64,000 nucleotides of DNA from an uncultured Candidatus Saccharibacteria bacterium (GCA_964607655.1 CAZSKX010000002.1:77327-141326), one strand, 5' to 3'. Positions 9,924 through 63,496 are shown, numbered from the stretch's first letter. Numbers and translations are program-made. Notes: generated from the sequence alone by a model not told the origin.

Positions 9924-11343
9924 ATCGCTCAATGAACTCACAATAGTCGAGGCGGCGCGTGGTCTGCGTGCTAAAGAATTTACCGTGCGTGAGCTCTGGG
10001 ACGCCTGCCACGCCGCTGCGGTCAAAAAGAACCAAGAGATTTTTGCATTTCTTGAGATTTTTGATGCCGATGACGCGGCGATTGAAGCGGCGCAGAAGCG
10101 GATTGATGCGGGCGATGCGTCGCTGCTCTGTGGCATTCCGCTCGCGATCAAAGACAATATTTTGATAGAAGGGAGAATCGCAAGCGCAGCAAGCAAGATG
10201 CTCGCCAACTATCGCGCGACTTATGACGCGACGGTAGTTAAGAAGCTTAAAGAGGCAGGGGCGCTCTTTGTCGGCCGTACGAACATGGACGAGTTCGCCA
10301 TGGGCTCTTCGACAGAGCACTCAGCCTTTGGCGCTACGAAGAATCCGATAGATACTGCGCGCGTACCAGGTGGGTCTTCGGGCGGTTCGGCGGCAGCTGT
10401 CGCAGCGCATATGTGTATCGCGGCGCTTGGCACCGACACCGGAGGTTCGATCCGCCAGCCCGCCGCGCTCACGGGCCTCGTGGGGTTGAAACCTACCTAT
10501 GGCGCGGTCTCGCGATCAGGGCTTATCGCGATGGGCTCTTCGCTCGACCAGGCGGGACCACTGACGAAGTCAGTTGAGGACGCGCGTATTTTATTTGAAA
10601 CGATTCGCGGTATTGATCCGCTTGATGCGACCACCACCCCTGAAGGCCTGTATCCGCAACGAGAGGCAAAGGAAAAAATGAAGATCGGCGTCCCGAGAGC
10701 GTTTCTTAGCGCAGGGGTCGACGCAGATCTCGCGAGCATGTTCGAAGAAAATCTTAAAAAATTAGAAGCGGCGGGACACACGATCGTCGACATTGAGCTC
10801 CCCACGAGTCCGTATGCGCTCGCGGCGTATTACGTGGTGATGCCGGCCGAGGTCTCGACCAACCTCGCACGTCTCGATGGTATCCGTTATGGGCACGCCA
10901 CGCGTGGCGAGACACTGCTCGACGATTACCTACAGAGCCGCTCTGAAGGATTTGGCGAAGAGACGCGGCGGCGCATTCTCTTGGGGACCTTCGTGCTCTC
11001 GTCGGGCTATATCGACGCGTACTATCACAAGGCGCAGGCTGCGCGTGACGTGCTCCGCGCTGAGTACAATAAAGCATTTGAAACGGTAGACGTTGTTGTG
11101 TTCCCGACGACGCCATCTCCGGCTTTTAAATTTGGCGAGAAGGTGAATGACCCGCTCGCGCTCTATCTTGAAGATGTGTTCACCGTGACGGCAAACTTGA
11201 CCGGGATGCCTGCGCTCTCGGTACCGATGGGTACGGTAGAGAGAGAAGGGAAGGCGCTGCCGGTCGGCCTTCATCTTACGGCTCCGCACCAGGCTGAACA
11301 TCTTCTTTTTGCTCTGGCGAAAGCTGTCGAGAACGCGCCATAG
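9916..11343 (+). CDS. gatA: Asp/Glu-tRNA amidotransferase subunit A (amidase)
   Basis: Amidase signature GGSSGGSAAAVAA and a Ser-cisSer-Lys triad context; 475 aa. Confidence 0.95.
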   Translation: MNKSLNELTIVEAARGLRAKEFTVRELWDACHAAAVKKNQEIFAFLEIFDADDAAIEAAQKRIDAGDASLLCGIPLAIKDNILIEGRIASAASKMLANYRATYDATVVKKLKEAGALFVGRTNMDEFAMGSSTEHSAFGATKNPIDTARVPGGSSGGSAAAVAAHMCIAALGTDTGGSIRQPAALTGLVGLKPTYGAVSRSGLIAMGSSLDQAGPLTKSVEDARILFETIRGIDPLDATTTPEGLYPQREAKEKMKIGVPRAFLSAGVDADLASMFEENLKKLEAAGHTIVDIELPTSPYALAAYYVVMPAEVSTNLARLDGIRYGHATRGETLLDDYLQSRSEGFGEETRRRILLGTFVLSSGYIDAYYHKAQAARDVLRAEYNKAFETVDVVVFPTTPSPAFKFGEKVNDPLALYLEDVFTVTANLTGMPALSVPMGTVEREGKALPVGLHLTAPHQAEHLLFALAKAVENAP

Positions 11344-11373
11344 CAGATAGAATTCCGGCTATACTAAGAAGGC

Positions 11374-11952
11374 ATGCAGGAAGACCAGCTCAATATTGAG
11401 TATTTTTTCCGTCGGCTCTACGAACTTTTAAACGGCGTGCAAGGAACGTCAGGAGACTTCAACCCGCTCTGGGTCCTTGTCGCGCGGGTGTGGTCCTGGA
11501 TCGTTGTACTAGGGTACGCGTTCTCGGTACTCGGACTCTTTGTGCTTGTCTATGCCACCATGCGTTTATTAGAACTACGCAAGCGAGAGAAAGAATTCTA
11601 CAGTACGCTTCTTGTCACCCCCGAGCAGGCGCACGAGGTAAATCAGCGCTGGAAGCACATCTCATCCTTGATTGAGGGCGGCAGCGAGAGTCAATGGCGC
11701 GAGGCGATCACCGAGGCAGACATCATGCTCGACGATGTATTGAATAAGCGTGGCTATGTAGGAGACGGAGTCGCAGACAAATTGAAGAGTGTCGATGTCG
11801 CGGATCTCGCGAGTCTGCAGGACGCCTGGGAGGCGCACAAAGTGCGCAACCAGATCGCGCACGAGGGCTCAGCATTTCAGCTCTCTGAGACGCTCGCACA
11901 GCGCACTCTCGCGCGTTACGAGAATGTATTTCGCGAGTGGGGGGCAATCTAA
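11374..11952 (+). CDS. Hypothetical membrane-anchored protein
   Basis: 192-aa ORF with one predicted TM helix (WVLVARVWSWIVVLGYAFSVLGLFVLVYA); no recognisable domain. Confidence 0.5.
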   Translation: MQEDQLNIEYFFRRLYELLNGVQGTSGDFNPLWVLVARVWSWIVVLGYAFSVLGLFVLVYATMRLLELRKREKEFYSTLLVTPEQAHEVNQRWKHISSLIEGGSESQWREAITEADIMLDDVLNKRGYVGDGVADKLKSVDVADLASLQDAWEAHKVRNQIAHEGSAFQLSETLAQRTLARYENVFREWGAI

Positions 11953-12024
11953 GGCTCAGGTTGCAGGCTTAAAAGAAGCGCGTATACTGCTTGCATTGTG
12001 AGCGTCGGGCGACTAAGATAGCAT

Positions 12025-12095
12025 AGCGGGATGGACTAGAGGTTGGTCGCGGGGCTCATAACCCCGATACGTCGGTTCGATTCCGACTCCCGCAA
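12025..12095 (+). tRNA. tRNA-Met, initiator type (anticodon CAU)
   Basis: The cloverleaf is reconstructed by hand. The anticodon loop is CUCAUAA with three G-C pairs at the base of the anticodon stem (GGGG/CCCC). The D-stem has an A11:U24 pair and position 1:72 is unpaired (A/A). These are initiator hallmarks. The T-loop is TTCGATT and no CCA is encoded. Confidence 0.8.
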
Positions 12096-12110
12096 CAAGT
12101 AACTAAACGC

Positions 12111-12145
12111 AAAAGGCGCTCGAAAGAGCGCCTTTTGCGTTTTGG
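12111..12145. terminator. Bidirectional rho-independent terminator
   Basis: aaaaggcgctc-gaaa-gagcgcctttt hairpin flanked by A and T runs. Confidence 0.7.
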
Positions 12146-12207
12146 GTGGAACGGGTATATCGTAACGGCGGGTAACGCTCTTCAAAATTTCCAAAGGGAG
12201 GTCGCAC

Positions 12208-13317
12208 ATGCGACAGAAAGTAATTCCAAAGATTGCCATTACGGGCGGTCCATGCGCAGGTAAAACAACTGCGTTGGCCGGACTTGAACAGAAGCTTGGA
12301 GATCTGGGCTTCTATCCGATCGTGATTCCGGAGACGGCCACCAAGGTCAGTCTCGCGGGAATCAGGCCGGGTGTCGTGCCGGTCAACGTTTTTCAGCGAC
12401 ACCTGCTTCGGCAGGGAAGGATCGATGAAGACTACTTCCTCGAAAGCGCGATGCATATCGACTCGGACAAGGTGGTGTTCCTCTGTGATCGAGGGTTGCC
12501 TGACATCGGGGCGTACACCTTGCCGCAGGAGTTCGAGCTCTTGCTCGCTGGGGAAGGCCTCAGTCTCGTGCAAGCACGTGACGTGCGCTACGATGCGGCG
12601 ATCTTTCTGCGCTCGGTGGCGTATGACGCGCCACATCTCTACACGCGCGAGAACAATGCGGCGCGCCGTGAGACGGTGGACGAGGCGCGCAAGGCCGACG
12701 AGCGCACGCTGGCTGCGTGGGTGGGGCACCCCCATCTGCGAGTGATCGACAATCGTGGTGACCTCGTGTGGAAGAGGGCGCGGGTGCTGGAAGCTATCTG
12801 TCGAGTGCTCGGTATCCCTGCGCCGCTCGAGATCGAGCGTAAGTTCCACGTGACCGGCTTCGACGTAAGCAGGATCCCTGCGCCCGTCCAACCTGTCGGC
12901 ATCACCCAGTACTACCTGGTGAGCGAAGAAGAGGGCGTGGTCGAGCGGGTCCGAGCGCGAAGTCAGGGAGGTGGCCAGGCGTTCTATCACACGATGAAGC
13001 GGTTGCTTCGACAGGGCGTCCGCGAGGAGGTCGAGGAGAAGATCACCCAGAAGGAATACTTTGCGTTCTTGCGCAGAGTGGACCCGCACTTCGGGAAGGT
13101 CGAGAAGACCAGGTACTGCTTCGTGTGGAAGAATCAGTACTTCGAGCTCGACGTATTCCACCAGCCACACGGGCTCATGCTCCTCGAACACGAGCTCACG
13201 CGTGAAGACGAGGAGACCATCATGCCGGATTTCCTCGCGGGACACGTTCGTGACGTGAGTGACGATCCTGCGTTCACCAATGTGGAGATTGCTCGGCGCC
13301 TCGCTCGCGCCGCTTGA
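12208..13317 (+). CDS. P-loop nucleotide kinase (AAA_28/NadR-RNK-like) fused to a C-terminal CYTH (triphosphate tunnel) domain
   Basis: N-terminal Walker A ITGGPCAGKTT. The C-terminal half begins with the CYTH signature EIERKFHV (the ExExK motif). Its GC3 is higher than the neighbouring genes. Confidence 0.7.
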   Translation: MRQKVIPKIAITGGPCAGKTTALAGLEQKLGDLGFYPIVIPETATKVSLAGIRPGVVPVNVFQRHLLRQGRIDEDYFLESAMHIDSDKVVFLCDRGLPDIGAYTLPQEFELLLAGEGLSLVQARDVRYDAAIFLRSVAYDAPHLYTRENNAARRETVDEARKADERTLAAWVGHPHLRVIDNRGDLVWKRARVLEAICRVLGIPAPLEIERKFHVTGFDVSRIPAPVQPVGITQYYLVSEEEGVVERVRARSQGGGQAFYHTMKRLLRQGVREEVEEKITQKEYFAFLRRVDPHFGKVEKTRYCFVWKNQYFELDVFHQPHGLMLLEHELTREDEETIMPDFLAGHVRDVSDDPAFTNVEIARRLARAA

Positions 13318-13339
13318 GGAGGTTCTTTCGGAAAAAGAA

Positions 13340-13380
13340 AATGCCCGTGCGTGACTGCTGTCACGCACGGGCATTTAAAT
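13340..13380. terminator. Rho-independent terminator
   Basis: 15-bp perfect stem atgcccgtgcgtgac/gtcacgcacgggcat with loop tgct, followed by a T-rich stretch. Confidence 0.75.
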
Positions 13381-13479
13381 TTACCGACGATTCATCTGGC
13401 ACGCTACAGTTGTTGTTCTTGCTGAGAATGCGCAAAAGCTGAGCTTGCTTCATGTAACCTCCATCCCTATACTCTCTCA

Positions 13480-14070
13480 ATGTCAGTGAAAATTTCTCCG
13501 AAAAAAGTAGTCCTATCACGCATCGCGCAAGACACCCTTTTTGCTCCGACGATCACCCCAGCACGAACACTCCGCTACAACGGAGCGGTTACTCGAGCGC
13601 TCTCTGACAAGGTGCTTAGAGATATCGAACGGCTTATGCACAAGGCTCCGAGTGAGAACGTATTTCTTATGGTGACTTCGACGGGTGGGCCTACGGGTAT
13701 CGCCATGAACTTTTTTGATACGATTCGTCACATACTCCGTGCTCCGCTCGTGACGATCGGTTCAGGAGATGTCGACTCCTCAGGCGTTATTATCCTCCTC
13801 TCGGGAGAACGACGCTATGTGACTGCTCGTACGACCCTCCTCCTCCATTCGGCCGGCCGTTTCTTCGGCGCGCAGCGCTATACCACCACAGAAATGGCCT
13901 CTATGCTGCGCGAAGATCGACTTAAGGATGAACAGTACGCAGGCGTGATCGCCGAACGTTCGCAAGGAGCTTTGAGTGTTACCCGAGTGCTTGAGCTTAT
14001 GGAACGACAGGCGGTGCTCACGCCCCAAGAACTCGTCGACTATAATCTTGCGCACGGCATTCTCGCGTAA
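13480..14070 (+). CDS. ClpP-family (S14) serine peptidase, divergent
   Basis: It is collinear with ClpP. TSTGGPTGIAMNFFDTI corresponds to INSPGGxxxAGxAIYDTM. GDVDSSG corresponds to the GQAASMG Ser site. LLLHSAGRFFGAQ corresponds to IMIHQPSGGAQG. It is 196 aa. Confidence 0.7.
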   Translation: MSVKISPKKVVLSRIAQDTLFAPTITPARTLRYNGAVTRALSDKVLRDIERLMHKAPSENVFLMVTSTGGPTGIAMNFFDTIRHILRAPLVTIGSGDVDSSGVIILLSGERRYVTARTTLLLHSAGRFFGAQRYTTTEMASMLREDRLKDEQYAGVIAERSQGALSVTRVLELMERQAVLTPQELVDYNLAHGILA

Positions 14071-14182
14071 CGTCTAACGCGCGGACTCTTCGTTAACCAA
14101 AATTTAACACGCTCATTTGTATACTCGGGGCTGGTCGACAAAAAAAGAGTGTGAGGATTACCAGAGCGTAACTACCAAACGT

Positions 14183-14425
14183 ATGGCAGGAACCAGTAAT
14201 CGCGGATTTGCGTCGATGGATGAAGAGAAGCAGCGAGAGATCGCAAGCAAGGGCGGCAAAGCCGCACACGAGAAGGGCACTGCGCACGAGTTTACTTCAG
14301 AAGAGGCTCGTGAGGCAGGTCGTAAGGGTGGCAAGGCATCCCACGGAGGCCGTAGTAACGAGGACGATAGCAACTACGGCCGCGGCGACAGTGGAGGTAG
14401 CAGTCCAGGCAGCCAGGAGATCTAG
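14183..14425 (+). CDS. General stress protein, KGG-repeat family (YciG-like)
   Basis: Repeated ...SKGGKAAHEKG.../...RKGGKASHGG... KGG motifs. The start is placed at the internal Met (the track ORF starts at 14117). Confidence 0.75.
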   Translation: MAGTSNRGFASMDEEKQREIASKGGKAAHEKGTAHEFTSEEAREAGRKGGKASHGGRSNEDDSNYGRGDSGGSSPGSQEI

Positions 14426-14435
14426 CTGCATATAT

Positions 14436-14474
14436 AAAAATACGCGCCTCTTCTGGGGCGCGTATTTTTATTTG
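14436..14474. terminator. Bidirectional terminator shared by the KGG gene (+) and pyk (-)
   Basis: atacgcgcc-tcttctgg-ggcgcgtat hairpin with flanking A/T runs on both sides. Confidence 0.75.
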
Positions 14475-14484
14475 AAACCGGTAT

Positions 14485-15909
14485 TTAGACGGTTTGTACC
14501 ATCATCAGGTTGGTGTTACCGGCCTTGCCGAGCGGTACGCCCGCTACGAGGATAATCCGGTCGCCCTTCTTGGCGAGCTTCTCTGAGAGGATCGCCTTCT
14601 TGCCCTCGTCGATGACAGTGAGCACTGTTTCGAAGGAGGTAACGAGCATCGGGTGGCAGGCGAAGGAGAGGGCCAGCTTGCGCGCCGTGGTCTCGTGCGG
14701 GGTGAAGACGATGATCGGCTGCATCGGGCGATGGCGGGCGATCATGCGTCCTGTATAGCCGCTCTCTGAGAGAGCGACGATCGCACGCACGTCGAGGCGT
14801 ATCGCGGTCTCAGCAACGGCACGGCCGAGAGCGTCAACAAGATCGTACTCCTCGCGCTTCAAGAAATGTTTAAACAGGTTGCGATAGGTCGGCTGGTTCT
14901 CGGTCTCGCAGGCGATCTTTGCCATCATCGATACGGCCTCGAGCGGGAAGTCGCCGAGCGCTGACTCCTCAGAGAGCATCACGGCGTCGGTGCCGTCGAG
15001 GATCGCGTTTGCGACGTCGGCCACCTCGGCGCGGGTCGGGACCGGACTCTTCACCATGCTCTCGAGCATCTGGGTCGCGGTGATAACCGGCTTACCAGCG
15101 GCGACACAGGCACGGATGATCTGCTTCTGGATAAAGGGCACGTTTTCTGCCGAGACCTCTACGGCGAGATCGCCGCGAGCGACCATGATCCCATCGCTCG
15201 CAGCGATGATCGCGTCGATGTCCGCAACCGCCTCAGGCGTCTCGATCTTCGAGATAATCCCGGGGACGTGTTTTGGTGACTGCTTCAAGATGAGTGCGCG
15301 GAGCTTCTTCACATCGTCGGCCGAGCGTACAAAGGAGAGGGCAACGAAGTCGACCTTCTCCTTAAGGCCAAAGGCGAGGTCAACCTTGTCCTTCGCGGTG
15401 ATTGCGCTCACTTTACAGAATGCGCCGGGGGCGTTTACGCCACGGCGTCCCTTGATCGTGCCACCAACAAGCACCTTGGTGATCACGTCAGTCCCGCGGA
15501 CGCTCTGCACCTCGAGGGTGCGACGACCGTCGTCGAGGAGGATCATCGAGCCCTTCTTCACTTCCTTGTGGAGGTGGGGGTAGCCTACGAAGACCTTGTC
15601 CTTGGTGCCGACGCAGGGCGTGGTCGAGAGGGTAAAGGTCTGACCCTTCACGAGGGTGATGCTTCCGTCAGCGAAGTCGCCGATGCGGACCTTAGGGCCG
15701 CAGAGGTCCTGGAGGATCGCGATGGGGGCATTAAGCTCGGTTGCGACCGTGCGAATATTCGCCATCTTAGCCCCTTGCTCGGCGTGATCGCCGTGAGAGA
15801 AGTTGACGCGCGCGACGTTCATGCCCGCCTTGATAAGGGCAGCCAGGGTCTTAGGGTCTGACGAGGCAGGGCCGATAGTGGCTACAATTTTGGTTCGTTT
15901 TGATCGCAT
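14485..15909 (-). CDS. pyk: Pyruvate kinase
   Basis: 474 aa; MRSKRTKIVATIGPAS N-terminus; PK barrel and C-terminal domains. Confidence 0.95.
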   Translation of the reverse strand: MRSKRTKIVATIGPASSDPKTLAALIKAGMNVARVNFSHGDHAEQGAKMANIRTVATELNAPIAILQDLCGPKVRIGDFADGSITLVKGQTFTLSTTPCVGTKDKVFVGYPHLHKEVKKGSMILLDDGRRTLEVQSVRGTDVITKVLVGGTIKGRRGVNAPGAFCKVSAITAKDKVDLAFGLKEKVDFVALSFVRSADDVKKLRALILKQSPKHVPGIISKIETPEAVADIDAIIAASDGIMVARGDLAVEVSAENVPFIQKQIIRACVAAGKPVITATQMLESMVKSPVPTRAEVADVANAILDGTDAVMLSEESALGDFPLEAVSMMAKIACETENQPTYRNLFKHFLKREEYDLVDALGRAVAETAIRLDVRAIVALSESGYTGRMIARHRPMQPIIVFTPHETTARKLALSFACHPMLVTSFETVLTVIDEGKKAILSEKLAKKGDRIILVAGVPLGKAGNTNLMMVQTV

Positions 15910-16275
15910 ATATAAAAAATAAAAGCTCCGCGGGGCGAAGTGCGTTCACTATACTGTAACTTGGACAGTTTGGGAATACGTTCTTGCGAAGTGCGGGCGA
16001 CCTGTTACCATTGTTTCGTGGTCGACGCTTGTCAGCTAATCACATGGCTGGCTACATTTTTTGTAGCCTCCAACCACAAACATCATGGATGAAGTAAATG
16101 ACCAGGCAGTACCGGCTACCGACGCTCCGGAAGCAGCCCCTGAAACACAGGAGGAGGCTCCTGTTGAGGCTCCGGCGATGCCCGAGATGCCAGCAGAAGG
16201 CGAGGCAGCTGCATAAGCGTCTCTTTAATCAAAATAGCCACGGCAGGAGCTGTGGCTATTTGATTTTGATATACT

Positions 16276-16677
16276 GTGATGATGAAAGGATATATCGCTA
16301 ACATTGAAGACAAAGCGCTTACCAATAATTATTTCCGTGAGGTGCTTTATACCGATGAGCGTGTCCAGCTCGTGGTCATGAGCTTATTGCCCGGAGAGGA
16401 GATCGGCGAAGAGGTGCACGATCTTGACCAGTTCCTGCGCGTCGAGCAAGGAGAGGGGAAGGCTGTACTCGATGGAGTCGAAAACCTCATCAAGGACGGT
16501 TCAGCTATCGTGGTGCCGAAAGGGACGAAGCATAACCTCATCAACACGTCCTCGACCGAGTCGATGAAGCTCTATACGCTCTACGCTCCGCCTAACCACA
16601 AAGACGGTACTATCCATATAACAAAGGCCGAGGCAGAAGCAGCTGATGAGCATTTCGACGGCCAGACGACGGAATAA
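16276..16677 (+). CDS. Cupin-domain protein
   Basis: A small beta-barrel cupin (VVPKGTKHNLIN region); 133 aa. Confidence 0.65.
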   Translation: MMMKGYIANIEDKALTNNYFREVLYTDERVQLVVMSLLPGEEIGEEVHDLDQFLRVEQGEGKAVLDGVENLIKDGSAIVVPKGTKHNLINTSSTESMKLYTLYAPPNHKDGTIHITKAEAEAADEHFDGQTTE

Positions 16678-16682
16678 CGTTC

Positions 16683-18140
16683 GTGTGGTATAATGGTGCG
16701 TACATGAAGCTTATTCAAGGCGCGAAAAATGTCAGTCGATGGGTTCGGCAGCACTGGATCATATCCACGTGTGTTGCCCTCCTTGTTGTAGGAGGCGGTT
16801 ATTGGTACTACAGCGCAAATCGCCCGGAGGAGTACCAGTTTGTTGTGGTCACGCGGGGCCCTATCACGGAGACGGTGTCAGTAACCGGAAGCACAGAAGC
16901 CGTACAGAATGTATCCCTAGCATTCCAAAGCTCGGGGATGATTGCTCGTGTATACCGTGAGGTGGGCGATCGAGTATCTGCAGGCGAAGTCCTCGCAGTG
17001 CTTAACACCGCCTCGCTCCAGGCTGCGCTCCAGGAGGCGCAGGCTGCCTACGACAGCGCCGTTGCTTCTCGTTCGTCCATTCCAGTAGGGGAGACAGAAA
17101 CCGCGGCGCGTAACGCATACTTGTCTGCCTACACAGTGATCGATACAACTCTGTACGACAAGGTCGATACATTTTTTGGTGGCAGTACTGCCTATGGGCC
17201 AGAGCTTCTCATATCTGCGCCAGCGTACAATTTTGGCGAATTATCACGAGACCGTGCAAGGATTGCTGAAGATATGAGGGCCTACAAGTCCGCGCTAACA
17301 GAAGCTTCGTCAAAAGATCCGCTTACGCTCCTGACTCAGGCTAACGCGACCGCTACTAACGTCATGACTTTCTTGAACAAGATCGCGGTGGCGGCGAATG
17401 ACTCTAATTCAGGCGCGACCGCTACGCAGCTTGCTGCGCTCACCACTGCGCGCTCTACGGTAAGCACCTTGCTCGCGACGCTTTCGACGGCACGAGATTC
17501 GTACCGTAGCGGGAGCGTGAACTCAACCGCCGTCGCCGACGCAAGTGTTGAACAGGCGGCGGCCAGAATCGCGATAGCGCGGGCCAATATCGCAAATGCT
17601 CAGATAGTGGCACCGTTCTCAGGTACGGTGACCCAGTTTGATGCGAAGGTGGGACAGACCGCGACCGCAGGAGCTCCACTCATCTCCCTTATTTCAACGG
17701 GAGGTTTCCAAATAACGGCTGGAATCTCTGAGACGGATATCGGGAAGATTGCGGTTGGGAATAAGGTCTCGATGACGCTCGATGCCTTCCCCAACGAGAC
17801 GTTTATGGGTACGATTTTCTACATCGATCCCGCTGAGACGATCATCGACGGCGTTGTTGACTACAAGATCAAAGCCACCTTCGATAAGGCCGATCCTCGG
17901 ATGAAGAGTGGACTCACGGTAAACCTCGACATCATGACACGCAGCAAAGACGACGTGCTCCTCTTGCCGCAGTACGCGATCCTTGAGGATGATGCGGGCA
18001 GTTATGTTAAGACTGTTGCCACCACAACGCCGCTTCGGGTGCCTATAACCCGCGGTATCCAAGATGAGGAGGGCATGGTGGAGATCCTCTCGGGAGTAGC
18101 AGAGGGTGATCAGGTGTTGAACGTTGGCTTGAAGCAGTAG
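16683..18140 (+). CDS. Efflux periplasmic adaptor (HlyD/MacA family)
   Basis: An N-terminal TM anchor and a long coiled-coil middle region. The lipoyl/beta-barrel C-terminus resembles MacA (QIVAPFSGTVTQF). The start may be the internal Met at 16701. Confidence 0.8.
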   Translation: MWYNGAYMKLIQGAKNVSRWVRQHWIISTCVALLVVGGGYWYYSANRPEEYQFVVVTRGPITETVSVTGSTEAVQNVSLAFQSSGMIARVYREVGDRVSAGEVLAVLNTASLQAALQEAQAAYDSAVASRSSIPVGETETAARNAYLSAYTVIDTTLYDKVDTFFGGSTAYGPELLISAPAYNFGELSRDRARIAEDMRAYKSALTEASSKDPLTLLTQANATATNVMTFLNKIAVAANDSNSGATATQLAALTTARSTVSTLLATLSTARDSYRSGSVNSTAVADASVEQAAARIAIARANIANAQIVAPFSGTVTQFDAKVGQTATAGAPLISLISTGGFQITAGISETDIGKIAVGNKVSMTLDAFPNETFMGTIFYIDPAETIIDGVVDYKIKATFDKADPRMKSGLTVNLDIMTRSKDDVLLLPQYAILEDDAGSYVKTVATTTPLRVPITRGIQDEEGMVEILSGVAEGDQVLNVGLKQ

Positions 18141-21612: not shown

Positions 21613-21686
21613 GCTGGCGTAGCTCAGGTAGTTAGAGCGTGGGATTCATAAACCCAAGGTCGCAGGTGCAAATCCTGCCGTCAGCA
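21613..21686 (+). tRNA. tRNA with anticodon CAU (elongator Met or Ile2), atypical
   Basis: Hand-folded. The acceptor is GCUGGCG/CGUCAGC and the D-arm is GCUC-AGGUAGUUA-GAGC. The anticodon loop is UUCAUAA. Position 31:39 is an A/A mismatch. The T-arm is GCAGG-UGCAAAU-CCUGC, which places G at the normally invariant U55. No CCA is encoded. Confidence 0.6.
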
Positions 21687-21912
21687 CAATAAGCGTTAGT
21701 GGTTGTGCTTGACGGAGAGGCGTGTCTACACACGCCTCGGCAGGATTTGCAGGCCGCAGCGGTGTTTGGTCAGCAGACCAAACCGCGAGGCAGGGTCGTG
21801 AGAATCGGCGAGTGACGACGAGGCGATTACTCCTGACCAAACTGCCGTCAGCACCCGCTACCGTAATTAAAAAACCGGGTCGAGAAGCTTTCGCTTCTCG
21901 ACCCGGGGTTCT

Positions 21913-25831: not shown

Positions 25832-26494
25832 CTAGTCGTCCGAGCTGGACATGATCCGCAGAAGATCGAGGAACAGGTTGATGATGTCGAGGTACAGGGA
25901 TACCGCAACATCGACCGCGTTGTCGAGTGTGGCCGGGATCTCGCTTGCCCTCCACATGTCATAGCCGATGTAGAGAGCGAAGATGACGGCGCTCGCGTAG
26001 TCGATGACACCGACTCCCTGGATCGCCGGGATGAACAGGCGAGCAAAGGAAACGACCACCAGGGCCGTCAGTGCGCCGAAGAGCGCGCCACCGATCGAGC
26101 GGTAGAAGTTGGGAAACAGCAGACCGCTGACTCCCATCGTCGCTGTGACGAGTCCCGTCATGGTCGCTGCCCGCTCGATGAGCCCCGGCTCCTTCATCTC
26201 GTACATCACGAGCACCGGGCCGAGGATGGCGCTGAGCCCTCCGACGACCAGGTTGAATCCCAGGAATGAAACGAGCGCGTTACCGCTCATGACAGACAGG
26301 AAGATCCCCACGATCGGGACGCCCAGGCCCACGAGCAGGATGCCGCCGATGCCGGGCTCCCACGTACCGGTCGCCTGGGCGACGATCGTTGTGAGCGCAA
26401 AGCCCCACGAAAGAATCATGCCCAGAACGAGGTAGAACGAGCCGCGGGTCATTTCGTCGGTGCCGCCCCGCTCCCAAACTTCACTTGAAATCAT
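25832..26494 (-). CDS. Bax-inhibitor-1/YccA family membrane protein
   Basis: 7 TM and a charged C-terminal tail (...LLRIMSSSDD), typical of the BI-1 family. Confidence 0.75.
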   Translation of the reverse strand: MISSEVWERGGTDEMTRGSFYLVLGMILSWGFALTTIVAQATGTWEPGIGGILLVGLGVPIVGIFLSVMSGNALVSFLGFNLVVGGLSAILGPVLVMYEMKEPGLIERAATMTGLVTATMGVSGLLFPNFYRSIGGALFGALTALVVVSFARLFIPAIQGVGVIDYASAVIFALYIGYDMWRASEIPATLDNAVDVAVSLYLDIINLFLDLLRIMSSSDD

Positions 26495-26744
26495 ATTCCG
26501 AGTTCTCCCTTTTGCGACGGAATGGGTATCAAAGGATTTCGAGTTGTCGCCTGACTCAAATCCAAACTAGAGCCATAATTTATATAGCATATAAAAGACC
26601 AAAAGTCAATCACCTCTGCACGATCTAGCGTATGAAGTGAGAATGGGATTGGTATAAAAAAGAATCGTTCGACAATCTCATGCAAAAGCCCCCTCGTCTC
26701 AAGACGAGGGGGCGAAGATTCTGTCCGACTGGCGGACGAGGGGC

Positions 26745-27059
26745 TCATGAACCGACGTGGATGCGCGGCTGCGAACCCGTCATCACGGGTTTGATCTCTG
26801 CGTCCAGATCTACCTCGATCCTCTGGAACTTGTCGGCTAGGAAGCGGTAGTCCCAGCTTCCTTCTCCGAGATCGAGAACATACGACCATCGGCCGTCTCT
26901 TTCGAGATGTACCTCTTGGACGGTGTGTGGTCCGCGGTCGCGGAGAAAGGGATTTTTACCGCCGACGAGAGTGAGGCTCATCGCCGCAATGACGTCACTC
27001 TTCATCAGTACGGTATCGCCTTGGGTTGCTGGCGCTGGCACGTCGCTATACATGAGCAC
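26745..27059 (-). CDS. Small E-set/CBM48-like (glycogen-binding-domain-like) protein
   Basis: ...VHLERDGRWSYVLDLGEGSWDYRFLADK... matches the AMPK-beta/isoamylase N-domain pattern. It ends at a terminator at 26687-26720. Confidence 0.4.
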   Translation of the reverse strand: MLMYSDVPAPATQGDTVLMKSDVIAAMSLTLVGGKNPFLRDRGPHTVQEVHLERDGRWSYVLDLGEGSWDYRFLADKFQRIEVDLDAEIKPVMTGSQPRIHVGS

Positions 27060-27212
27060 GATCCTCCGGGTTGAAGTCAGAACAGAAAAGGAACAAGATC
27101 AGGCCAAGCCACAGTATGTGCTACCTGGCTTGAAGTCGGGATGAAGCTGGCTAACGGCACCGATGCGTGACCTGGTGGACGACGTGAGAACCGGAATCCT
27201 AATTGTAGGACC

Positions 27213-28559
27213 CTAGTTTCGTTGGGATATAAAATAGACAAGCAAGTCTTGGTTTTTGGTACGGCTCTTAATCCAAGAAGATAGGGTTTCTTGCTCTCTC
27301 GTGGAAAGGGGCTGTGCAAGCTCAGATACGTACATAATAGCGACAGCCACCACTCCCGTATCAGATGGGCCAGATCCGCTAGTGGTGTCTGCTCCAGATG
27401 AAGATAAGTTTCCTAGCGCTAAACGGACGATCTTATTGCTAATGGCCTGAGCCTCGCTTAGGACTTGAGCCGCCGCCTCTACGCCAACAAGCCCACGAGA
27501 AAATTTCTCCTCCAAGGCTTTTACCTTCTCACTTTCATCTCTGATACTAGAAATGGCAGCATTCCACTCTTCCTCGCTCAGCGAGGCGCTATCCTGCTTT
27601 ATTACCAGCTCAGTGTTGTGCAATCCGTAATCGGCAAGTCGGCTCTTGAATGTGGAGATTTCTGATGAATCGAAATGTTTTGACAAGAAAGCCAACTCAA
27701 TTTTATTTGGGTTGCTGCCGTACTGGATGCTTTTATAAATAATGACGTGTCCCTTGTTTGTAAACGTCTCCTTGATGAATCTCTCTGTATTTTGATTGAA
27801 ATTATTTTCCCTGATAAAAACTGCCGCCAGATACGTAGCAGGGATAACCATAAGAACAACGACAATGGTCATTATTTTTTTGTTTTTTCTCTTCTGCTCA
27901 AGATCAACCTCAACATTCGGCAATCTGAGGTATTCCACTCCAAGGAATGTTGCTAGGCAGATGAATATGCAATTTATTGCGTACAAATAAAGGGCGCCAA
28001 AAAAGAAAGCGGGCTGCGCTGTCGCAATGCCATAACCGGCCGTACACAGCGGCGGCATTAATGCCGTAGAGATTGCGACTCCAGGAATAACGTTCCCTCT
28101 TTCTGCTCTAGTGCTACCCACGATACCTGCAAGCCCGCCAAAAAAAGCAATGAGGACGTCATAAATGGTTGGGCTCGTTCTTGCCAGCAATTCGGATTGA
28201 ATGTTACTGATCGGACTTAGATAAAAATAAAGGGTCGATATGGCGACCCCGATGATCGTGGCGATCGAGAGACTTCTAAGCGCTTTCTTAAGTAAGACTG
28301 AATCATTGATCCCCAATGAGAGACCAAGGCCAACTATTGGTCCCATGAGCGGTGAGATAAGCATCGCACCAACGATAACCGCAACCGAATTAATATTGAG
28401 GCCAATGGAGGCAATGAATACTGCGAAAATTAGCGTCCAAAGATTCGCCCCGCGAAACTCGACGCCCTTCTTTATATTCTCGACGATCCTTTCTTCCTGT
28501 TCCTTGCCATCCCTAATATCAAAAATGCCCGAGAAGTATTCAAAAATAATACTTTTCAT
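27213..28559 (-). CDS. DUF389 (TIGR00341-type) hydrophobic-domain membrane protein
   Basis: N-terminal EFRGANLWTLIFAVFIASIGLNINSVAVIVGAMLISPLMGPIVGLGLS is typical of DUF389. This gene and its flanks are markedly lower in GC than the surrounding sequence. Confidence 0.7.
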   Translation of the reverse strand: MKSIIFEYFSGIFDIRDGKEQEERIVENIKKGVEFRGANLWTLIFAVFIASIGLNINSVAVIVGAMLISPLMGPIVGLGLSLGINDSVLLKKALRSLSIATIIGVAISTLYFYLSPISNIQSELLARTSPTIYDVLIAFFGGLAGIVGSTRAERGNVIPGVAISTALMPPLCTAGYGIATAQPAFFFGALYLYAINCIFICLATFLGVEYLRLPNVEVDLEQKRKNKKIMTIVVVLMVIPATYLAAVFIRENNFNQNTERFIKETFTNKGHVIIYKSIQYGSNPNKIELAFLSKHFDSSEISTFKSRLADYGLHNTELVIKQDSASLSEEEWNAAISSIRDESEKVKALEEKFSRGLVGVEAAAQVLSEAQAISNKIVRLALGNLSSSGADTTSGSGPSDTGVVAVAIMYVSELAQPLSTREQETLSSWIKSRTKNQDLLVYFISQRN

Positions 28560-28798
28560 AAGTTGGCGTTAGTATACCTCACCTCTCTATAAACCTTAAA
28601 AACCGATGCGCGAGAGACGGGACTTGGTCAGGACTAATCTGATCGCTACCCCGGGGACTTGATCCTTACAGGATCTGTACACCTTGTGGAGATTCTGCTC
28701 CACGTATTCGCAAAATCCCTCACAAGGTCTTCAAGTCCCGTCCAATGCAAAAAGTACAGAAAAAGCCGGGGACCAACCCGGCATTTTTCTGACTTTGC

Positions 28799-28872
28799 GC
28801 GAGAGACGGGACTTGAACCCGCAACCTCCGCCGTGACAGGGCGGCGCTCTAACCAGTTGAGCTACTCCCGCA
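28799..28872 (-). tRNA. tRNA-Asp (anticodon GUC)
   Basis: Minus-strand GCGGGAG-UA-GCUC-AACUGGUUA-GAGC-G-CCGCC-CUGUCAC-GGCGG-AGGUU-GCGGG-UUCAAGU-CCCGU-CUCUCGC-G. No CCA is encoded. Confidence 0.9.
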
Positions 28873-62829: not shown

Positions 62830-63091
62830 GGAAAGACCTCCTGAAACGTTGACTTGGAACATAAACAAAATACACCATAGGGTGTATTTTGTCAATAGTG
62901 TGGAGGTGTCGAGACCGCGATTACGCTATCGGTCACAAGTAAAAGCTGCTCCGTCGAGCAGCTTTTCTCGCGACCCCGCCTCGCGGTTGCGCGTGCTCGC
63001 GCAACATCGCTGCGGCTTTCGATTCCCGCACAGACGCTCCGCGTCTTCACCTCCACAACGCAAAAGCCGCCCGAAGGCGGTTTGCATTTTG

Positions 63092-63496
63092 TGGAGGTGG
63101 CGGGAATCGAACCCGCGTCCGAATCCGTCAGAGAAAGAGAGTCTACGACGCGTAGTCAGCGTTAAGTATTAAGGTAGGATGCGAAGAACGCAGACGAAAC
63201 CATTCCTACCCGATCCCTGATTTAAGTATGTCCCACGGGAGAGGGCACACCGATTCTACAGAACATTCCGCCCCTATCTCCGTCTGTAGACACCCGAGAG
63301 ATAGAGACGTCGCTTAGGCGAAAGCGCGAAGCTTTTACGCGAAGGCGAACGCAAAGTCCTTTGCACCGAAGTACGGAGACTTTACGCTTGCAAGAGTTTT
63401 GTCTGCAAGTATGTTTGCCTGTCCTTTTACGTGAATACAGGCGAGCACGGCGTCGCACGTCTTTCAAAGAGCAGACCGTCAAAGCCGGTCACCCCC
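63092..63496 (-). ncRNA. ssrA: tmRNA (SsrA)
   Basis: The minus-strand 5' end GGGGGUGACCGGCUUUGACGG pairs with the 3' tRNA-like end GGACGCGGGUUCGAUUCCCGCCACCUCCA, with a G3:U70 wobble. The resume region GUAAAAGGACAG-GCA AAC AUA... encodes the tag ANILADKTLASVKSPYFGAKDFAFAFA-UAA. A terminator hairpin CCGCC-UUCG-GGCGG plus U-run follows, and smpB lies upstream. Confidence 0.8.

What the first reader, a model, noticed from the sequence alone, without database searches (positions are those of the whole stretch)
12025..14070. P-loop kinase-CYTH fusion and a divergent ClpP placed directly downstream of tRNA-fMet
The gene at 12208-13317 fuses an N-terminal Walker-A kinase-like domain (ITGGPCAGKTT, resembling the NadR ribosylnicotinamide-kinase/AAA_28 fold) to a C-terminal CYTH domain. 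The CYTH half opens with the diagnostic ExExK motif (EIERKFHV). Triphosphate-tunnel enzymes act on nucleotide or thiamine triphosphates or polyphosphate, so a kinase-CYTH fusion suggests a coupled phosphotransfer and triphosphate-cleavage cycle of unknown substrate. It starts 113 nt after the initiator tRNA. A tRNA 3' flank is a classic hotspot for acquired DNA, and the gene's codon usage is somewhat more G/C3-rich than the neighbouring gatA and ligA. Immediately downstream is a ClpP homolog (13480-14070) whose active-site regions are recognisable but divergent (TSTGG for NSPGG, DSSG for ASMG). No clpX is adjacent. A KGG-repeat stress protein follows. I cannot tell from sequence whether these genes form a functional module, such as a stress or nucleotide-signalling cassette, or are just neighbours.
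Basis: partly seen in the sequence, partly recalled or inferred. Interest (0 to 1): 0.55.

Follow-up and report, generated by a model that had tools for sequence, protein, structure and literature searches.

The report
Kinase-CYTH gene beside ClpP-KGG pair
The genes are real and the domain calls are right, but the kinase-CYTH fusion is an ordinary, widespread stand-alone gene that only happens to sit beside the protease, whereas the odd ClpP-like protease is almost always paired with the small KGG stress-protein gene next to it.

Summary
Observation confirmed. An initiator-type tRNA-Met (12025-12096) is followed by a 369-aa AAA_28 P-loop + CYTH fusion (12208-13317), a divergent ClpP (13480-14070) and a KGG-repeat protein (14184-14425).

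The C-terminal half of the fusion is a complete NeuTTM-type triphosphate tunnel: profile vs PDB NE1496 gives 3.6e-18, and all catalytic residues are invariant.

The proposed fusion-ClpP module and the tRNA-island idea are not supported.
- The fusion family is large (>2,600 protein clusters; Patescibacteria, Clostridia, Bacilli, Bacteroidales).
- 0 of 80 fusion loci carry a ClpP-like gene, a KGG gene or a tRNA-Met nearby. 0 of 57 ClpP-like loci carry the fusion.
- A 90%-identical relative has tRNA region-fusion-pyk with the 1.1-kb ClpP-like/KGG segment (13377-14484) missing.
- GC3 is unremarkable and no att-like repeat exists.

The real linkage is ClpP-like + KGG. In 33 of 34 loci with enough flank, a KGG gene lies on the same strand within 36-314 bp. 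It lies on either side, in varied contexts.

This ClpP keeps Ser100 and His123 but has Gln177 (His/Asn in relatives) instead of Asp, and lacks the N-terminal ClpX-docking region. In this it resembles Pseudomonas PpClpP1.

Overall the finding is modest. The fusion is a known architecture with no enzymology found. The ClpP-KGG pairing was absent from the searched literature.

The parts
12025..12096 (+). Initiator-type tRNA-Met (CAT)
   Evidence: ARAGORN; Rfam tRNA 56 bits. The cloverleaf has an unpaired A1xA72, GGG:CCC at the base of the anticodon stem, and A11:U24.
12105..12142 (.). Perfect 17-bp hairpin (terminator-like) separating the tRNA from the fusion gene
   Evidence: Inverted repeat I3, 100% complementary; terminator-like scan hit.
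12208..13317 (+). 369-aa AAA_28 P-loop / CYTH fusion gene, monocistronic
   Evidence: ORF; Pfam; more than 2,600 homologous clusters of about the same length; AF2 pLDDT 91.9.
12229..12765 (+). AAA_28 (NadR/TTD14-type) P-loop kinase-like domain, residues 8-186. Walker A is GGPCAGKT (13-20). Walker B / DRx motif is FLCDRG (91-96). AY is at 102-103. The LID-like NNxARxE is at 149-155.
   Evidence: Pfam 8.6e-19; invariant columns; Foldseek and hmmsearch resemblance to thymidylate kinases.
12826..13293 (+). NeuTTM-type CYTH triphosphate-tunnel domain, residues 207-362. Invariant residues: ExExK (E208, E210, K212), R247/R249, Y236/K264, E274/E276, K300/R302, E313/D315, E327/E329.
   Evidence: Profile vs PDB NE1496 3.6e-18; Foldseek 2e-11; invariant columns.
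13328..13387 (.). Hairpin terminator after the fusion gene (core 17-bp stem at 13339-13376)
   Evidence: It is conserved in relative L081.
13377..14484 (.). 1,108-bp segment (ClpP-like + KGG) that is present here and replaced by about 10 bp in the 90%-identical relative L081
   Evidence: blastn of L081 vs the window aligns 11009-13376 and 14485-16951 only; junction sequences.
13480..14070 (+). 196-aa divergent ClpP-family protease. Ser100 (13777-13779) and His123 (13846-13848) are retained. Gln177 (14008-14010) replaces the triad Asp. The N-terminal 19-25 residues are disordered, and the canonical alpha-A helix and axial loops are absent.
   Evidence: Pfam 5.5e-16; alignments; AF2 pLDDT 89; Foldseek ClpP TM 0.75-0.85; best PDB sequence hit is PpClpP1 9UXT.
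14184..14425 (+). 80-aa KGG-repeat (YciG/GsiB-type) hydrophilic protein, the conserved partner of the ClpP-like gene
   Evidence: Pfam KGG 3.4e-18; start set by homologue alignment; adjacency in 33 of 34 testable loci; no hairpin between it and the ClpP-like gene.
14434..14471 (.). Hairpin terminator shared by the KGG gene and the convergent pyruvate kinase gene
   Evidence: Inverted repeat I5, 15-bp perfect arms.

Best explanation
The interval holds three independent transcription units, each closed by its own hairpin terminator. It is not one cassette.

1. An initiator tRNA-Met.

2. A monocistronic, vertically inherited gene for a two-domain enzyme of a widespread family.
- The N-terminal domain is an AAA_28 (NadR/TTD14-type) P-loop domain. 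It has a kinase-like active site: Walker A GGPCxGKT, a hhhhDRG Walker B, a thymidylate-kinase-like DRx...AY substrate motif, and a LID arginine.
- It is fused to a NeuTTM-type CYTH tunnel that keeps every metal-binding, phosphate-binding and catalytic residue.
- Inferred mechanism: the P-loop half binds an NTP and transfers or hydrolyses its gamma-phosphate on a small nucleoside/nucleotide- or vitamin-like ligand. The tunnel half hydrolyses a triphosphate (inorganic PPPi or a triphosphorylated metabolite) by the two-metal TTM mechanism. This would be a nucleotide/phosphate-salvage function suited to auxotrophic Patescibacteria and gut anaerobes. The substrate is unknown.

3. A two-gene unit, ClpP-like + KGG, that comes and goes between close relatives and is the true conserved module.
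- The ClpP-like protein has the full ClpP fold and an invariant Ser-His pair. It lacks the triad Asp and the N-terminal gate and ClpX-docking elements.
- Inferred mechanism: it forms an open-pored barrel that does not depend on an unfoldase. It trims unstructured polypeptides during stress or recovery, and the intrinsically disordered KGG hydrophilin is its most likely substrate or regulatory partner.

Shown: gene identities, domain memberships, residue conservation, the absence of fusion-ClpP linkage, the indel, and the ClpP-KGG linkage. Inferred: substrates, oligomeric state, and direct ClpP-KGG interaction.
For: Units and terminators.

Fusion domains: Pfam; profile vs NE1496 3.6e-18; AF2 pLDDT 91.9 / pTM 0.90; Foldseek hits to NE1496, the AtTTM1 kinase-TTM tandem 7z67, and thymidylate kinases. 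The invariant catalytic columns include Y236/K264, which align with the NeuTTM Tyr/Lys pair.

Family breadth: 2,697 clusters among the scored candidates, and at least 550 species genomes across Patescibacteria, Clostridia, Bacilli, Bacteroidales and Coriobacteriales.

No linkage:
- 0 of 80 fusion loci have ClpP-like, KGG or any other window neighbour.
- No tRNA-Met lies within 1.5 kb of the fusion in any of them.
- No conserved neighbour family was found beyond 8 of 80 loci.
- 0 of 57 ClpP-like loci carry the fusion.

Indel: L081 (fusion protein 97% identical, DNA 90%) goes directly from the fusion terminator to pyk.

ClpP-KGG:
- 49 of 57 loci have a KGG gene adjacent and co-directional; of the 34 loci with enough flank, 33 do.
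- KGG is downstream in 22 of those 33 and upstream in 11, and the outer neighbours differ.
- There is no terminator between the two genes here.

ClpP-like features. Precedent: PpClpP1 has a Ser-His-Pro triad and a truncated N-terminus, does not bind ClpX, and is still a tetradecameric peptidase (PMC12900304).

Composition and att test.
Against: - No biochemistry exists for either protein family. The only experimentally studied protein found with the same architecture (Drosophila TTD14) was shown to bind GTP and lipids, not to be an enzyme. I could not align it directly.
- The Pfam CYTH score is below the gathering threshold.
- Most of the 80 fusion loci are from Firmicutes and Bacteroidota. 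Only about 16-19 are Patescibacteria, so the absence of linkage among near relatives rests on fewer loci (L001, L081-L083, L142-L143 and about 15 others).
- In the contig of the 92%-identical ClpP-like protein, the gene two positions upstream is unidentified because no DNA was available. It could be the fusion.
- ClpP-KGG adjacency proves selection for linkage, not physical interaction.
- One full-flank locus (L109) lacks KGG.
- A canonical ClpP or ClpX elsewhere in the genome cannot be excluded from a 64-kb window. A relative in the wider short-ClpP clade sits in tandem with a second ClpP, so hetero-oligomers are possible.
Confidence: 0.78

Rival explanations
1. The fusion, the ClpP homologue and the KGG protein form one acquired stress or nucleotide-signalling cassette, inserted at the 3' flank of the initiator tRNA.
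For: The genes are physically adjacent and co-directional. The fusion's GC3 is above that of gatA. The ClpP-like/KGG segment is variable between close relatives.
Against: 0 of 80 and 0 of 57 loci show co-localisation. Terminators lie between the units. The tRNA-fusion arrangement is retained in L081 without ClpP-like/KGG. No att repeat was found, and no integrase appeared among the ORFs inspected. GC3 is within 1.4 sd of the window's genes. PADLOC finds nothing.
Confidence: 0.03
2. The ClpP-like protein does not act alone. It would be a low-activity or regulatory subunit that forms mixed tetradecamers with a canonical ClpP encoded elsewhere. It would then work with ClpX or ClpC, as in PpClpP1P2 or Listeria ClpP1P2. 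On this view KGG adjacency reflects shared stress regulation only.
For: The closest solved relative, PpClpP1, behaves this way. The triad Asp is missing. A member of the wider short-ClpP clade is in tandem with a second CLP_protease gene.
Against: No second ClpP or Clp ATPase was found in the 64-kb window or among the conserved neighbours in the 57 ClpP-like loci. The KGG-linked subclade is always paired with KGG rather than with another ClpP. Linkage to KGG survives gene-order inversion.
Confidence: 0.3
3. The CYTH half is a class IV (CyaB-like) adenylyl cyclase or a thiamine triphosphatase. The fusion would then be a cyclic-nucleotide signalling enzyme or a thiamine-metabolism enzyme.
For: It belongs to the CYTH superfamily. 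Some Foldseek hits are annotated as adenylyl cyclases. An ECF-type vitamin-transporter S component overlaps the start of the gene in 7 Clostridia loci.
Against: The best sequence and structure match is the PPPi-specific NeuTTM group. The HF motif that extends ExExK in AC-IV enzymes (HFxxxxExExK; PMC8233210) is GI here. The W/YxRxR aromatic of ThTPases is absent: the sequence reads RVRAR.
Confidence: 0.07
4. The ClpP-like/KGG adjacency is inherited synteny with no functional meaning.
For: All carriers are Patescibacteria, mostly one class. The two genes may have separate promoters, since the spacer here is 113 bp.
Against: ClpP-like identity falls to about 42%, yet adjacency holds in 33 of 34 testable loci. 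The order is inverted in a third of them and the outer neighbours are unrelated. No KGG gene occurs in 1.16 Mb of control loci.
Confidence: 0.1

Closest known systems
Drosophila melanogaster TTD14 (CG30118) and its invertebrate homologues
   Same: Same two-domain order. The P-loop NTPase has Walker A GxPxxGKT and Walker B hhhhDxG, followed about 200 residues later by a CYTH-like domain of about 160 residues. The motif spacing matches the window protein: Walker A to Walker B is 77 residues here vs 79 in TTD14, and Walker A to the CYTH start is 194 vs 206 (PMC4624897). The Pro mutated in ttd14 P75L corresponds to the invariant P15. From memory, not tested here: InterPro names the AAA_28 domain 'NadR/Ttd14 AAA domain'.
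   Different: TTD14 is eukaryotic, about 100 residues longer, and is described as a GTP- and PtdIns(3)P/PA-binding trafficking regulator with no enzymology. I could not obtain its sequence, so homology was not tested by alignment.
NeuTTM (Nitrosomonas europaea NE1496, PDB 2FBL/3TYP) and CthTTM: CYTH 'cluster 2' inorganic triphosphatases
   Same: The C-terminal half aligns end to end (E 3.6e-18, about 30% identity). It shares ExExK, RxR, ExE, the Tyr/Lys pair and the C-terminal helix.
   Different: Those enzymes are stand-alone proteins of about 150 aa. Here the tunnel is fused behind a P-loop domain.
Arabidopsis TTM1/TTM2 kinase-TTM tandem (PDB 7Z67)
   Same: N-terminal P-loop kinase followed by a C-terminal TTM. 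Foldseek matches both domains (E 6.5e-8).
   Different: The plant kinase is uridine/cytidine-kinase-like (PF00485), not AAA_28. The plant TTM has lost ExExK/ExE and is catalytically incompetent. The plant proteins are tail-anchored to mitochondria and described as plant-unique (PMC9582702, PMC8233210). Identity is 11% and rmsd 20 A, so the domain packing differs. This looks like an independent fusion.
NadR ribosylnicotinamide kinase domain, and thymidylate kinases
   Same: AAA_28 Pfam membership. The P-loop, DRx and AY motifs align with thymidylate kinases.
   Different: No NMN adenylyltransferase or HTH domain is present. No PDB sequence hit to NadR was found. The acceptor substrate is unknown.
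Pseudomonas plecoglossicida ClpP1 (PDB 9UXT)
   Same: It is the best PDB sequence match (1.5e-9). It has a truncated N-terminus lacking ClpX-docking elements, a Ser-His pair with a non-acidic third residue at the same column (Pro there, Gln177 here), and a ClpP barrel fold.
   Different: PpClpP1 has a canonical ClpP2 partner. The window protein's conserved neighbour is a KGG protein, and its family uses His/Asn/Gln at the third position.
KGG-repeat general stress proteins (E. coli YciG/YmdF, B. subtilis GsiB; Pfam PF10685)
   Same: Two KGG repeats in a small, hydrophilic protein. The core is highly conserved.
   Different: I found no report of these being paired with a protease gene: the literature search gave nothing linking KGG and ClpP.

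Membership tests
CYTH / triphosphate tunnel metalloenzyme (PF01928) | N-terminal ExExK motif on strand beta-1 | tested here: met
   E208-I-E210-R-K212; E208 and E210 are invariant and K212 nearly invariant in 21 family members.
CYTH / triphosphate tunnel metalloenzyme (PF01928) | Basic (Arg/Lys) and acidic (ExE) residues lining an eight-stranded beta-barrel tunnel | tested here: met
   R247, R249, K264, E274, E276, K300, R302, E313, D315, E327 and E329 are invariant. The AF2 model is an all-beta barrel for residues 207-349. Foldseek matches NE1496, AtTTM3 and SaTTM.
CYTH / triphosphate tunnel metalloenzyme (PF01928) | Score above Pfam's gathering threshold | tested here: not met
   19.8 bits vs a cut-off of 23.2. 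This is offset by the family profile vs NE1496 at 3.6e-18 over the whole domain. About a third of homologues carry a precomputed PF01928 hit.
CYTH / triphosphate tunnel metalloenzyme (PF01928) | Metal-dependent hydrolysis of a triphosphate | not testable with these tools
   Needs an enzyme assay.
Class IV adenylyl cyclase (CyaB) | HFxxxxExExK extension of the signature motif (PMC8233210) | tested here: not met
   The sequence is G-I-P-A-P-L-E-I-E-R-K, so no His-Phe.
AAA_28 (NadR/TTD14-type P-loop domain, PF13521) | Pfam gathering score; Walker A and Walker B motifs | tested here: met
   68.8 bits vs a cut-off of 27, covering 161 of 164 model positions. G13, G14, P15, C16, G18 and K19 are invariant, T20 nearly so, and D94 is invariant.
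TTD14 family (P-loop + CYTH-like) | Same domain order, with collinear Walker A (GxPxxGKT), Walker B (hhhhDxG) and CYTH | tested here: inconclusive
   Motif forms and spacings from PMC4624897 match the window protein. No TTD14 sequence was available for an alignment, and the AFDB fold library was unavailable.
Plant TTM1/TTM2 (UCK-like kinase + TTM) | Phosphoribulokinase/uridine kinase domain (PF00485), with loss of ExExK | tested here: not met
   No PF00485 hit; the domain is AAA_28. ExExK is retained.
Canonical ClpP (MEROPS S14; TIGR00493) | ClpP fold with handle helix | tested here: met
   AF2 pLDDT 89. Foldseek to E. coli, T. thermophilus and S. aureus ClpP: TM 0.75-0.85, rmsd 2.2-2.4 A over about 171 alignment columns.
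Canonical ClpP (MEROPS S14; TIGR00493) | Ser-His-Asp catalytic triad | tested here: not met
   Ser100 and His123 are invariant. The Asp column is Gln177 here and His/Asn/Gln/Glu in the subfamily. In the wider short-ClpP clade it is mostly Glu.
Canonical ClpP (MEROPS S14; TIGR00493) | N-terminal axial loops and alpha-A helix that gate the pore and dock ClpX/ClpA | tested here: not met
   Residues 1-19 have pLDDT below 50 and are unconserved. Conservation begins at A26-R27-T28, which aligns after the E. coli alpha-A helix.
Canonical ClpP (MEROPS S14; TIGR00493) | NCBIfam equivalog score | tested here: not met
   Best hit is 49 bits vs a cut-off of 228. TIGR00493 scores 24.7 vs 308.6.
ClpP-related phage head-maturation protease | Match to the phage protease models | tested here: not met
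   NF045542 scores 19 bits vs a cut-off of 120. The PHROGs head protease hit is 22.7 bits. No phage genes were seen nearby.
KGG stress-protein repeat (PF10685) | Pfam gathering score | tested here: met
   65.9 bits vs a cut-off of 20.4, with two repeats.
tRNA-flank genomic island | Integrase, a direct repeat of the tRNA 3' end, deviant composition, and absence from relatives | tested here: not met
   No integrase was seen among the ORFs inspected. No second copy of the tRNA 3' end exists, allowing up to 3 mismatches. GC3 is within 1.4 sd. The fusion is retained at the same place in L081.
Bacterial initiator tRNA | 1x72 mismatch, three G:C pairs at 29-31:39-41, and A11:U24 | tested here: met
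   Read from the sequence and the predicted cloverleaf. The mismatch is AxA rather than the usual CxA.

The most novel reading that the evidence does not exclude
The ClpP-like/KGG pair may be a self-contained protease system specific to Patescibacteria that needs no unfoldase. A gate-less ClpP barrel with a Ser-His-(His/Asn/Gln) active site would have as its dedicated client or regulator an intrinsically disordered KGG hydrophilin, for example by clearing the protectant when cells leave a stressed or dormant state. That would be a new kind of Clp partner: a disordered stress protein in place of an AAA+ ATPase. Separately, the AAA_28-CYTH family, apparently shared by bacteria and invertebrates (TTD14), could be an uncharacterised bifunctional enzyme of triphosphate metabolism.
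Probability: 0.2. Interest if true: 0.6.

Novelty: new variant of a known kind. Interest (0 to 1): 0.38.

Why it matters
As originally framed, the finding does not hold. The fusion is a routine member of a large family whose architecture is already annotated, and it has no tie to the tRNA or the protease.

Two things remain useful.

1. The AAA_28-CYTH family is very widespread in host-associated anaerobes and Patescibacteria and keeps both active sites intact. I found no enzymology for it. The only studied protein with this architecture is a fly trafficking factor, so a bacterial enzyme assay could explain both.

2. The tight, rearrangement-proof pairing of a truncated, Asp-less ClpP with a KGG stress protein is a clean, testable lead. 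It bears on how ultra-small bacteria with reduced proteostasis machinery handle stress proteins, and on what non-canonical ClpP paralogues do.

Tried and rejected
- Exact-sequence look-up of the fusion protein found no record.
- NCBIfam has no model for the fusion. PADLOC has no defence-system match for any of the three proteins.
- Sigma-70 promoter scan of 11900-14600 gave 0 hits. A TTGCTT-17-TATACT site just upstream of the ClpP-like ATG, seen by eye, fails the scan's criteria, so I do not rely on it.
- Rfam found nothing credible besides the tRNA.
- A search for an att-like repeat of the tRNA 3' end found none.
- I tested whether the 100-bp spacer before the ClpP-like gene is a remnant of the hemerythrin gene that precedes it in relatives. 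tblastn of the L084 hemerythrin against the window found nothing.
- ORF clustering looked for a conserved third gene. For the fusion, nothing exceeded 8 of 80 loci (a generic ABC ATPase); an ECF S-component occurs in 7 Clostridia loci only. For the ClpP-like gene, nothing apart from KGG was conserved; response regulators appear in 8 loci.
- I tried to obtain the TTD14 sequence from the paper's supplements. It is not there.
- Literature searches for AAA_28+CYTH and for KGG+ClpP returned nothing relevant.


Full report
**What is there**

The window is moderately GC-rich (55%). By its closest homologues it comes from a Patescibacteria (Paceibacteria-type) genome.

ARAGORN and Rfam place a tRNA-Met(CAT) at 12025-12096. 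Its sequence and predicted cloverleaf show the initiator hallmarks:
- position 1 is unpaired against 72 (A x A);
- the anticodon stem ends in three G:C pairs;
- 11:24 is A:U.

The other tRNA-Met of the window (21613-21687) has G1:C72.

A perfect 17-bp hairpin follows the tRNA (12105-12142). Then comes a strong Shine-Dalgarno sequence and the 369-codon ORF at 12208-13317. A second long hairpin (13328-13387) closes that gene. The 196-codon ClpP homologue (13480-14070) and the KGG gene follow with no hairpin between them. A third hairpin (14434-14471) is shared with the convergent pyruvate kinase gene. The KGG gene's true start is the ATG at 14184, by comparison with 40 homologues.

**The fusion protein**

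Pfam gives AAA_28 at 8.6e-19 for residues 8-186. CYTH scores only 19.8 bits, below its 23.2-bit threshold, for residues 207-319. The CYTH assignment is nevertheless solid:
- A profile of 21 family members hits the solved inorganic triphosphatase NE1496 (NeuTTM, 2FBL/3TYP) at 3.6e-18, end to end.
- The AlphaFold model is confident (pLDDT 91.9, pTM 0.90). By Foldseek it matches NE1496 (2e-11), other TTMs, and the Arabidopsis TTM1 kinase-TTM tandem 7Z67 (6.5e-8, both domains, different packing). The N-domain matches thymidylate and deoxynucleoside kinases.
- Every residue class that defines an active tunnel is invariant: E208/E210/K212 (ExExK), R247/R249, K264, E274/E276, K300/R302, E313/D315, E327/E329. 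Y236 and K264 align with the Tyr and Lys of NeuTTM.
- The class IV cyclase signature HFxxxxExExK and the ThTPase aromatic W/YxRxR (PMC8233210) are absent.

The N-domain keeps Walker A GGPCxGKT, a hhhhDRG Walker B, a thymidylate-kinase-like DRx...AY motif, and a conserved NNxARxE loop that is probably a LID. Both halves therefore look catalytically competent. In the plant TTM1/2 proteins, by contrast, the tunnel is dead (PMC9582702).

**How common it is and what is known**

The family has at least 2,697 90%-identity clusters among the scored candidates, nearly all 360-380 aa. At least 550 GTDB species genomes carry it, spanning Patescibacteria, Clostridia, Bacilli, Bacteroidales and Coriobacteriales. 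JGI already labels these proteins 'CYTH domain-containing protein/predicted ATPase' and NCBI labels them 'AAA family ATPase'. NCBIfam has no model for them.

Literature searching found no work on the bacterial proteins. It did turn up Drosophila TTD14. That protein has a P-loop (GxPxxGKT, hhhhDxG) followed by a CYTH-like domain, binds GTP and PtdIns(3)P/PA, and is needed for TRPL channel trafficking (PMC4624897). Its motif forms and spacings match the window protein. I could not obtain its sequence, so the homology is a strong lead rather than a tested result.

**Is the fusion linked to the tRNA or to ClpP? No.**

- In 80 loci from 80 species (+/-10 kb, 1.16 Mb), tblastn finds no ClpP-like gene, no KGG gene and no other window neighbour.
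- No tRNA-Met lies within 1.5 kb of the fusion in any of them; nearby tRNAs, of other kinds, occur in only 6 loci.
- ORF clustering finds no conserved neighbour. The only hint is an ECF-transporter S component (PF07155) overlapping the gene start in seven related Clostridia.
- A metagenomic relative, L081, encodes a 97%-identical fusion protein and is 90% identical in DNA. It aligns with window 11009-13376 and 14485-16951, going straight from the fusion's terminator to pyk.
- The fusion's GC3 (0.730) is like that of ligA (0.715) and lies within the spread of the window's genes (0.636 +/- 0.069). The ClpP-like gene (0.543) is also within range.
- There is no second copy of the tRNA 3' end.

**The ClpP-like protein and its real partner**

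The protein has the ClpP fold (AF2 pLDDT 89; Foldseek TM 0.75-0.85 to E. coli, Thermus and S. aureus ClpP). It scores far below every NCBIfam ClpP cut-off.

MAFFT and hhalign alignments against E. coli ClpP give the following.
- Ser100 and His123 are invariant.
- The Asp column is Gln177 here and His, Asn, Gln or Glu in the subfamily.
- The first 19-25 residues are disordered and unconserved, and the alpha-A helix and axial loops are missing.

The best PDB sequence hit is PpClpP1 (9UXT). It is a truncated, Ser-His-Pro ClpP that still forms tetradecamers and has weak peptidase activity. It does not bind ClpX and can mix with a canonical ClpP2 (PMC12900304).

An exhaustive profile search shows a small core family (45 representatives at E<=1e-30). 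This sits inside a wider clade of proteins that are mostly about 175 aa long (659 representatives at E<=1e-10), where the third residue is usually Glu. One such protein lies in tandem with a second ClpP gene.

In 57 loci carrying the ClpP-like gene, 49 have a KGG gene immediately adjacent on the same strand. Among the 34 loci with at least 450 bp on both sides, 33 do, at gaps of 36-314 bp. In 22 of those the KGG gene is downstream and in 11 it is upstream. Outer neighbours differ between loci: hemerythrin, pyk, response regulators and others. None of the 57 loci carries the fusion.

The KGG proteins are more conserved than the protease itself, with the core RGFASMDxEKQREIASKGGKAAHEKGTAHEF...EAGRKGG. 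Linkage that survives inversion of gene order and turnover of context argues for a functional tie. I found no paper describing it.

ClpP-KGG-pyk adjacency recurs in a more distant relative (L084). The junctions in L081 fall at the T-tracts of two terminators. The 1.1-kb difference is therefore more likely a deletion in the L081 lineage than an insertion here. This is inferred, not shown.

**Most likely mechanism**

Shown:
- three terminator-bounded units;
- an intact P-loop plus an intact NeuTTM-type tunnel in one polypeptide;
- a ClpP fold with Ser-His but no Asp and no gate;
- obligate genomic pairing with a KGG protein.

Inferred:
- The fusion is a salvage or phosphate-metabolism enzyme. 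Its P-loop half binds an NTP (GTP in TTD14) and acts on a small nucleoside-, nucleotide- or vitamin-like ligand. Its tunnel half hydrolyses PPPi or a triphosphorylated metabolite.
- The ClpP-like protein forms an open barrel that degrades unstructured polypeptides without an unfoldase. The disordered KGG protein would be its client or modulator.
- The main rival for the protease is a mixed complex with a canonical ClpP encoded elsewhere. A 64-kb window cannot exclude this.

**Verdict**

The fusion is a new member of a known but enzymatically uncharacterised architecture. The ClpP-like/KGG pairing is an apparently undescribed variant within the non-canonical ClpP paralogues. Interest is modest.

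Noticed in passing
window 13361-13453 (-): A 30-codon ORF (MKQAQLLRILSKNNNCSVPDESSVNLNARA) is preceded by a strong GGAGGT Shine-Dalgarno sequence. It is divergent from the ClpP-like gene, lies mostly inside the 1.1-kb variable segment, and overlaps the fusion gene's terminator. It has no Pfam hit.
   Followed up: partly
window 12103-13374 (-): A 423-codon antisense ORF is longer than the real fusion gene it overlaps. The same kind of shadow ORF appears opposite the fusion gene in five other loci. It is an artefact of GC-rich coding sequence that would mislead longest-ORF gene callers.
   Followed up: partly
L008, L019, L023, L036, L037, L057, L075 (immediately upstream of the fusion gene): In seven related Clostridia (Mogibacterium, Anaerovoracaceae, Lachnospiraceae), a 170-190-aa ECF-transporter S component ends at or overlaps the start of the fusion gene. 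It matches PF07155, the riboflavin-type family, at 1e-11. This is a possible clue that the P-loop half acts on an imported vitamin-like substrate.
   Followed up: partly
L144 234-1515: A 178-aa member of the wider short-ClpP clade lies in tandem with a second, 191-aa CLP_protease gene and has no KGG gene nearby. This suggests that other branches of the clade work as ClpP1/ClpP2-type pairs.
   Followed up: no
L141 6711-10852: A hybrid histidine kinase and a receiver-only response regulator sit directly upstream of, and co-directional with, the ClpP-like/KGG pair. Response-regulator genes occur near the pair in 8 of 57 loci.
   Followed up: no
window 26491-28871: The clearest compositional outliers of the window are a 448-aa DUF389 membrane protein (27213-28559, minus strand, GC 0.45, GC3 0.48) and a 132-aa ORF (26491-26889, GC3 0.41). 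They lie next to tRNA-Asp (28797-28871, minus strand). They are better candidates for acquired DNA at a tRNA flank than the fusion gene.
   Followed up: partly
window 63091-63496 (-): A tmRNA gene with an unusual predicted tag peptide, ADKTLASVKSPYFGAKDFAFAFA, ending in FAFA rather than the common LAA.
   Followed up: no
fusion residues 207-366 vs phrog_6660: The CYTH half matches a PHROGs family of unknown function at 1.2e-13 over the whole 157-position profile. Stand-alone NeuTTM-like CYTH proteins are therefore encoded by some phages.
   Followed up: no
L046 10001-11104: A contig labelled 'Candidatus Nanoarchaeia archaeon' carries a 40%-identical copy of the bacterial fusion gene. This could be mis-binning of a Patescibacteria contig or a transfer.
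   Followed up: no
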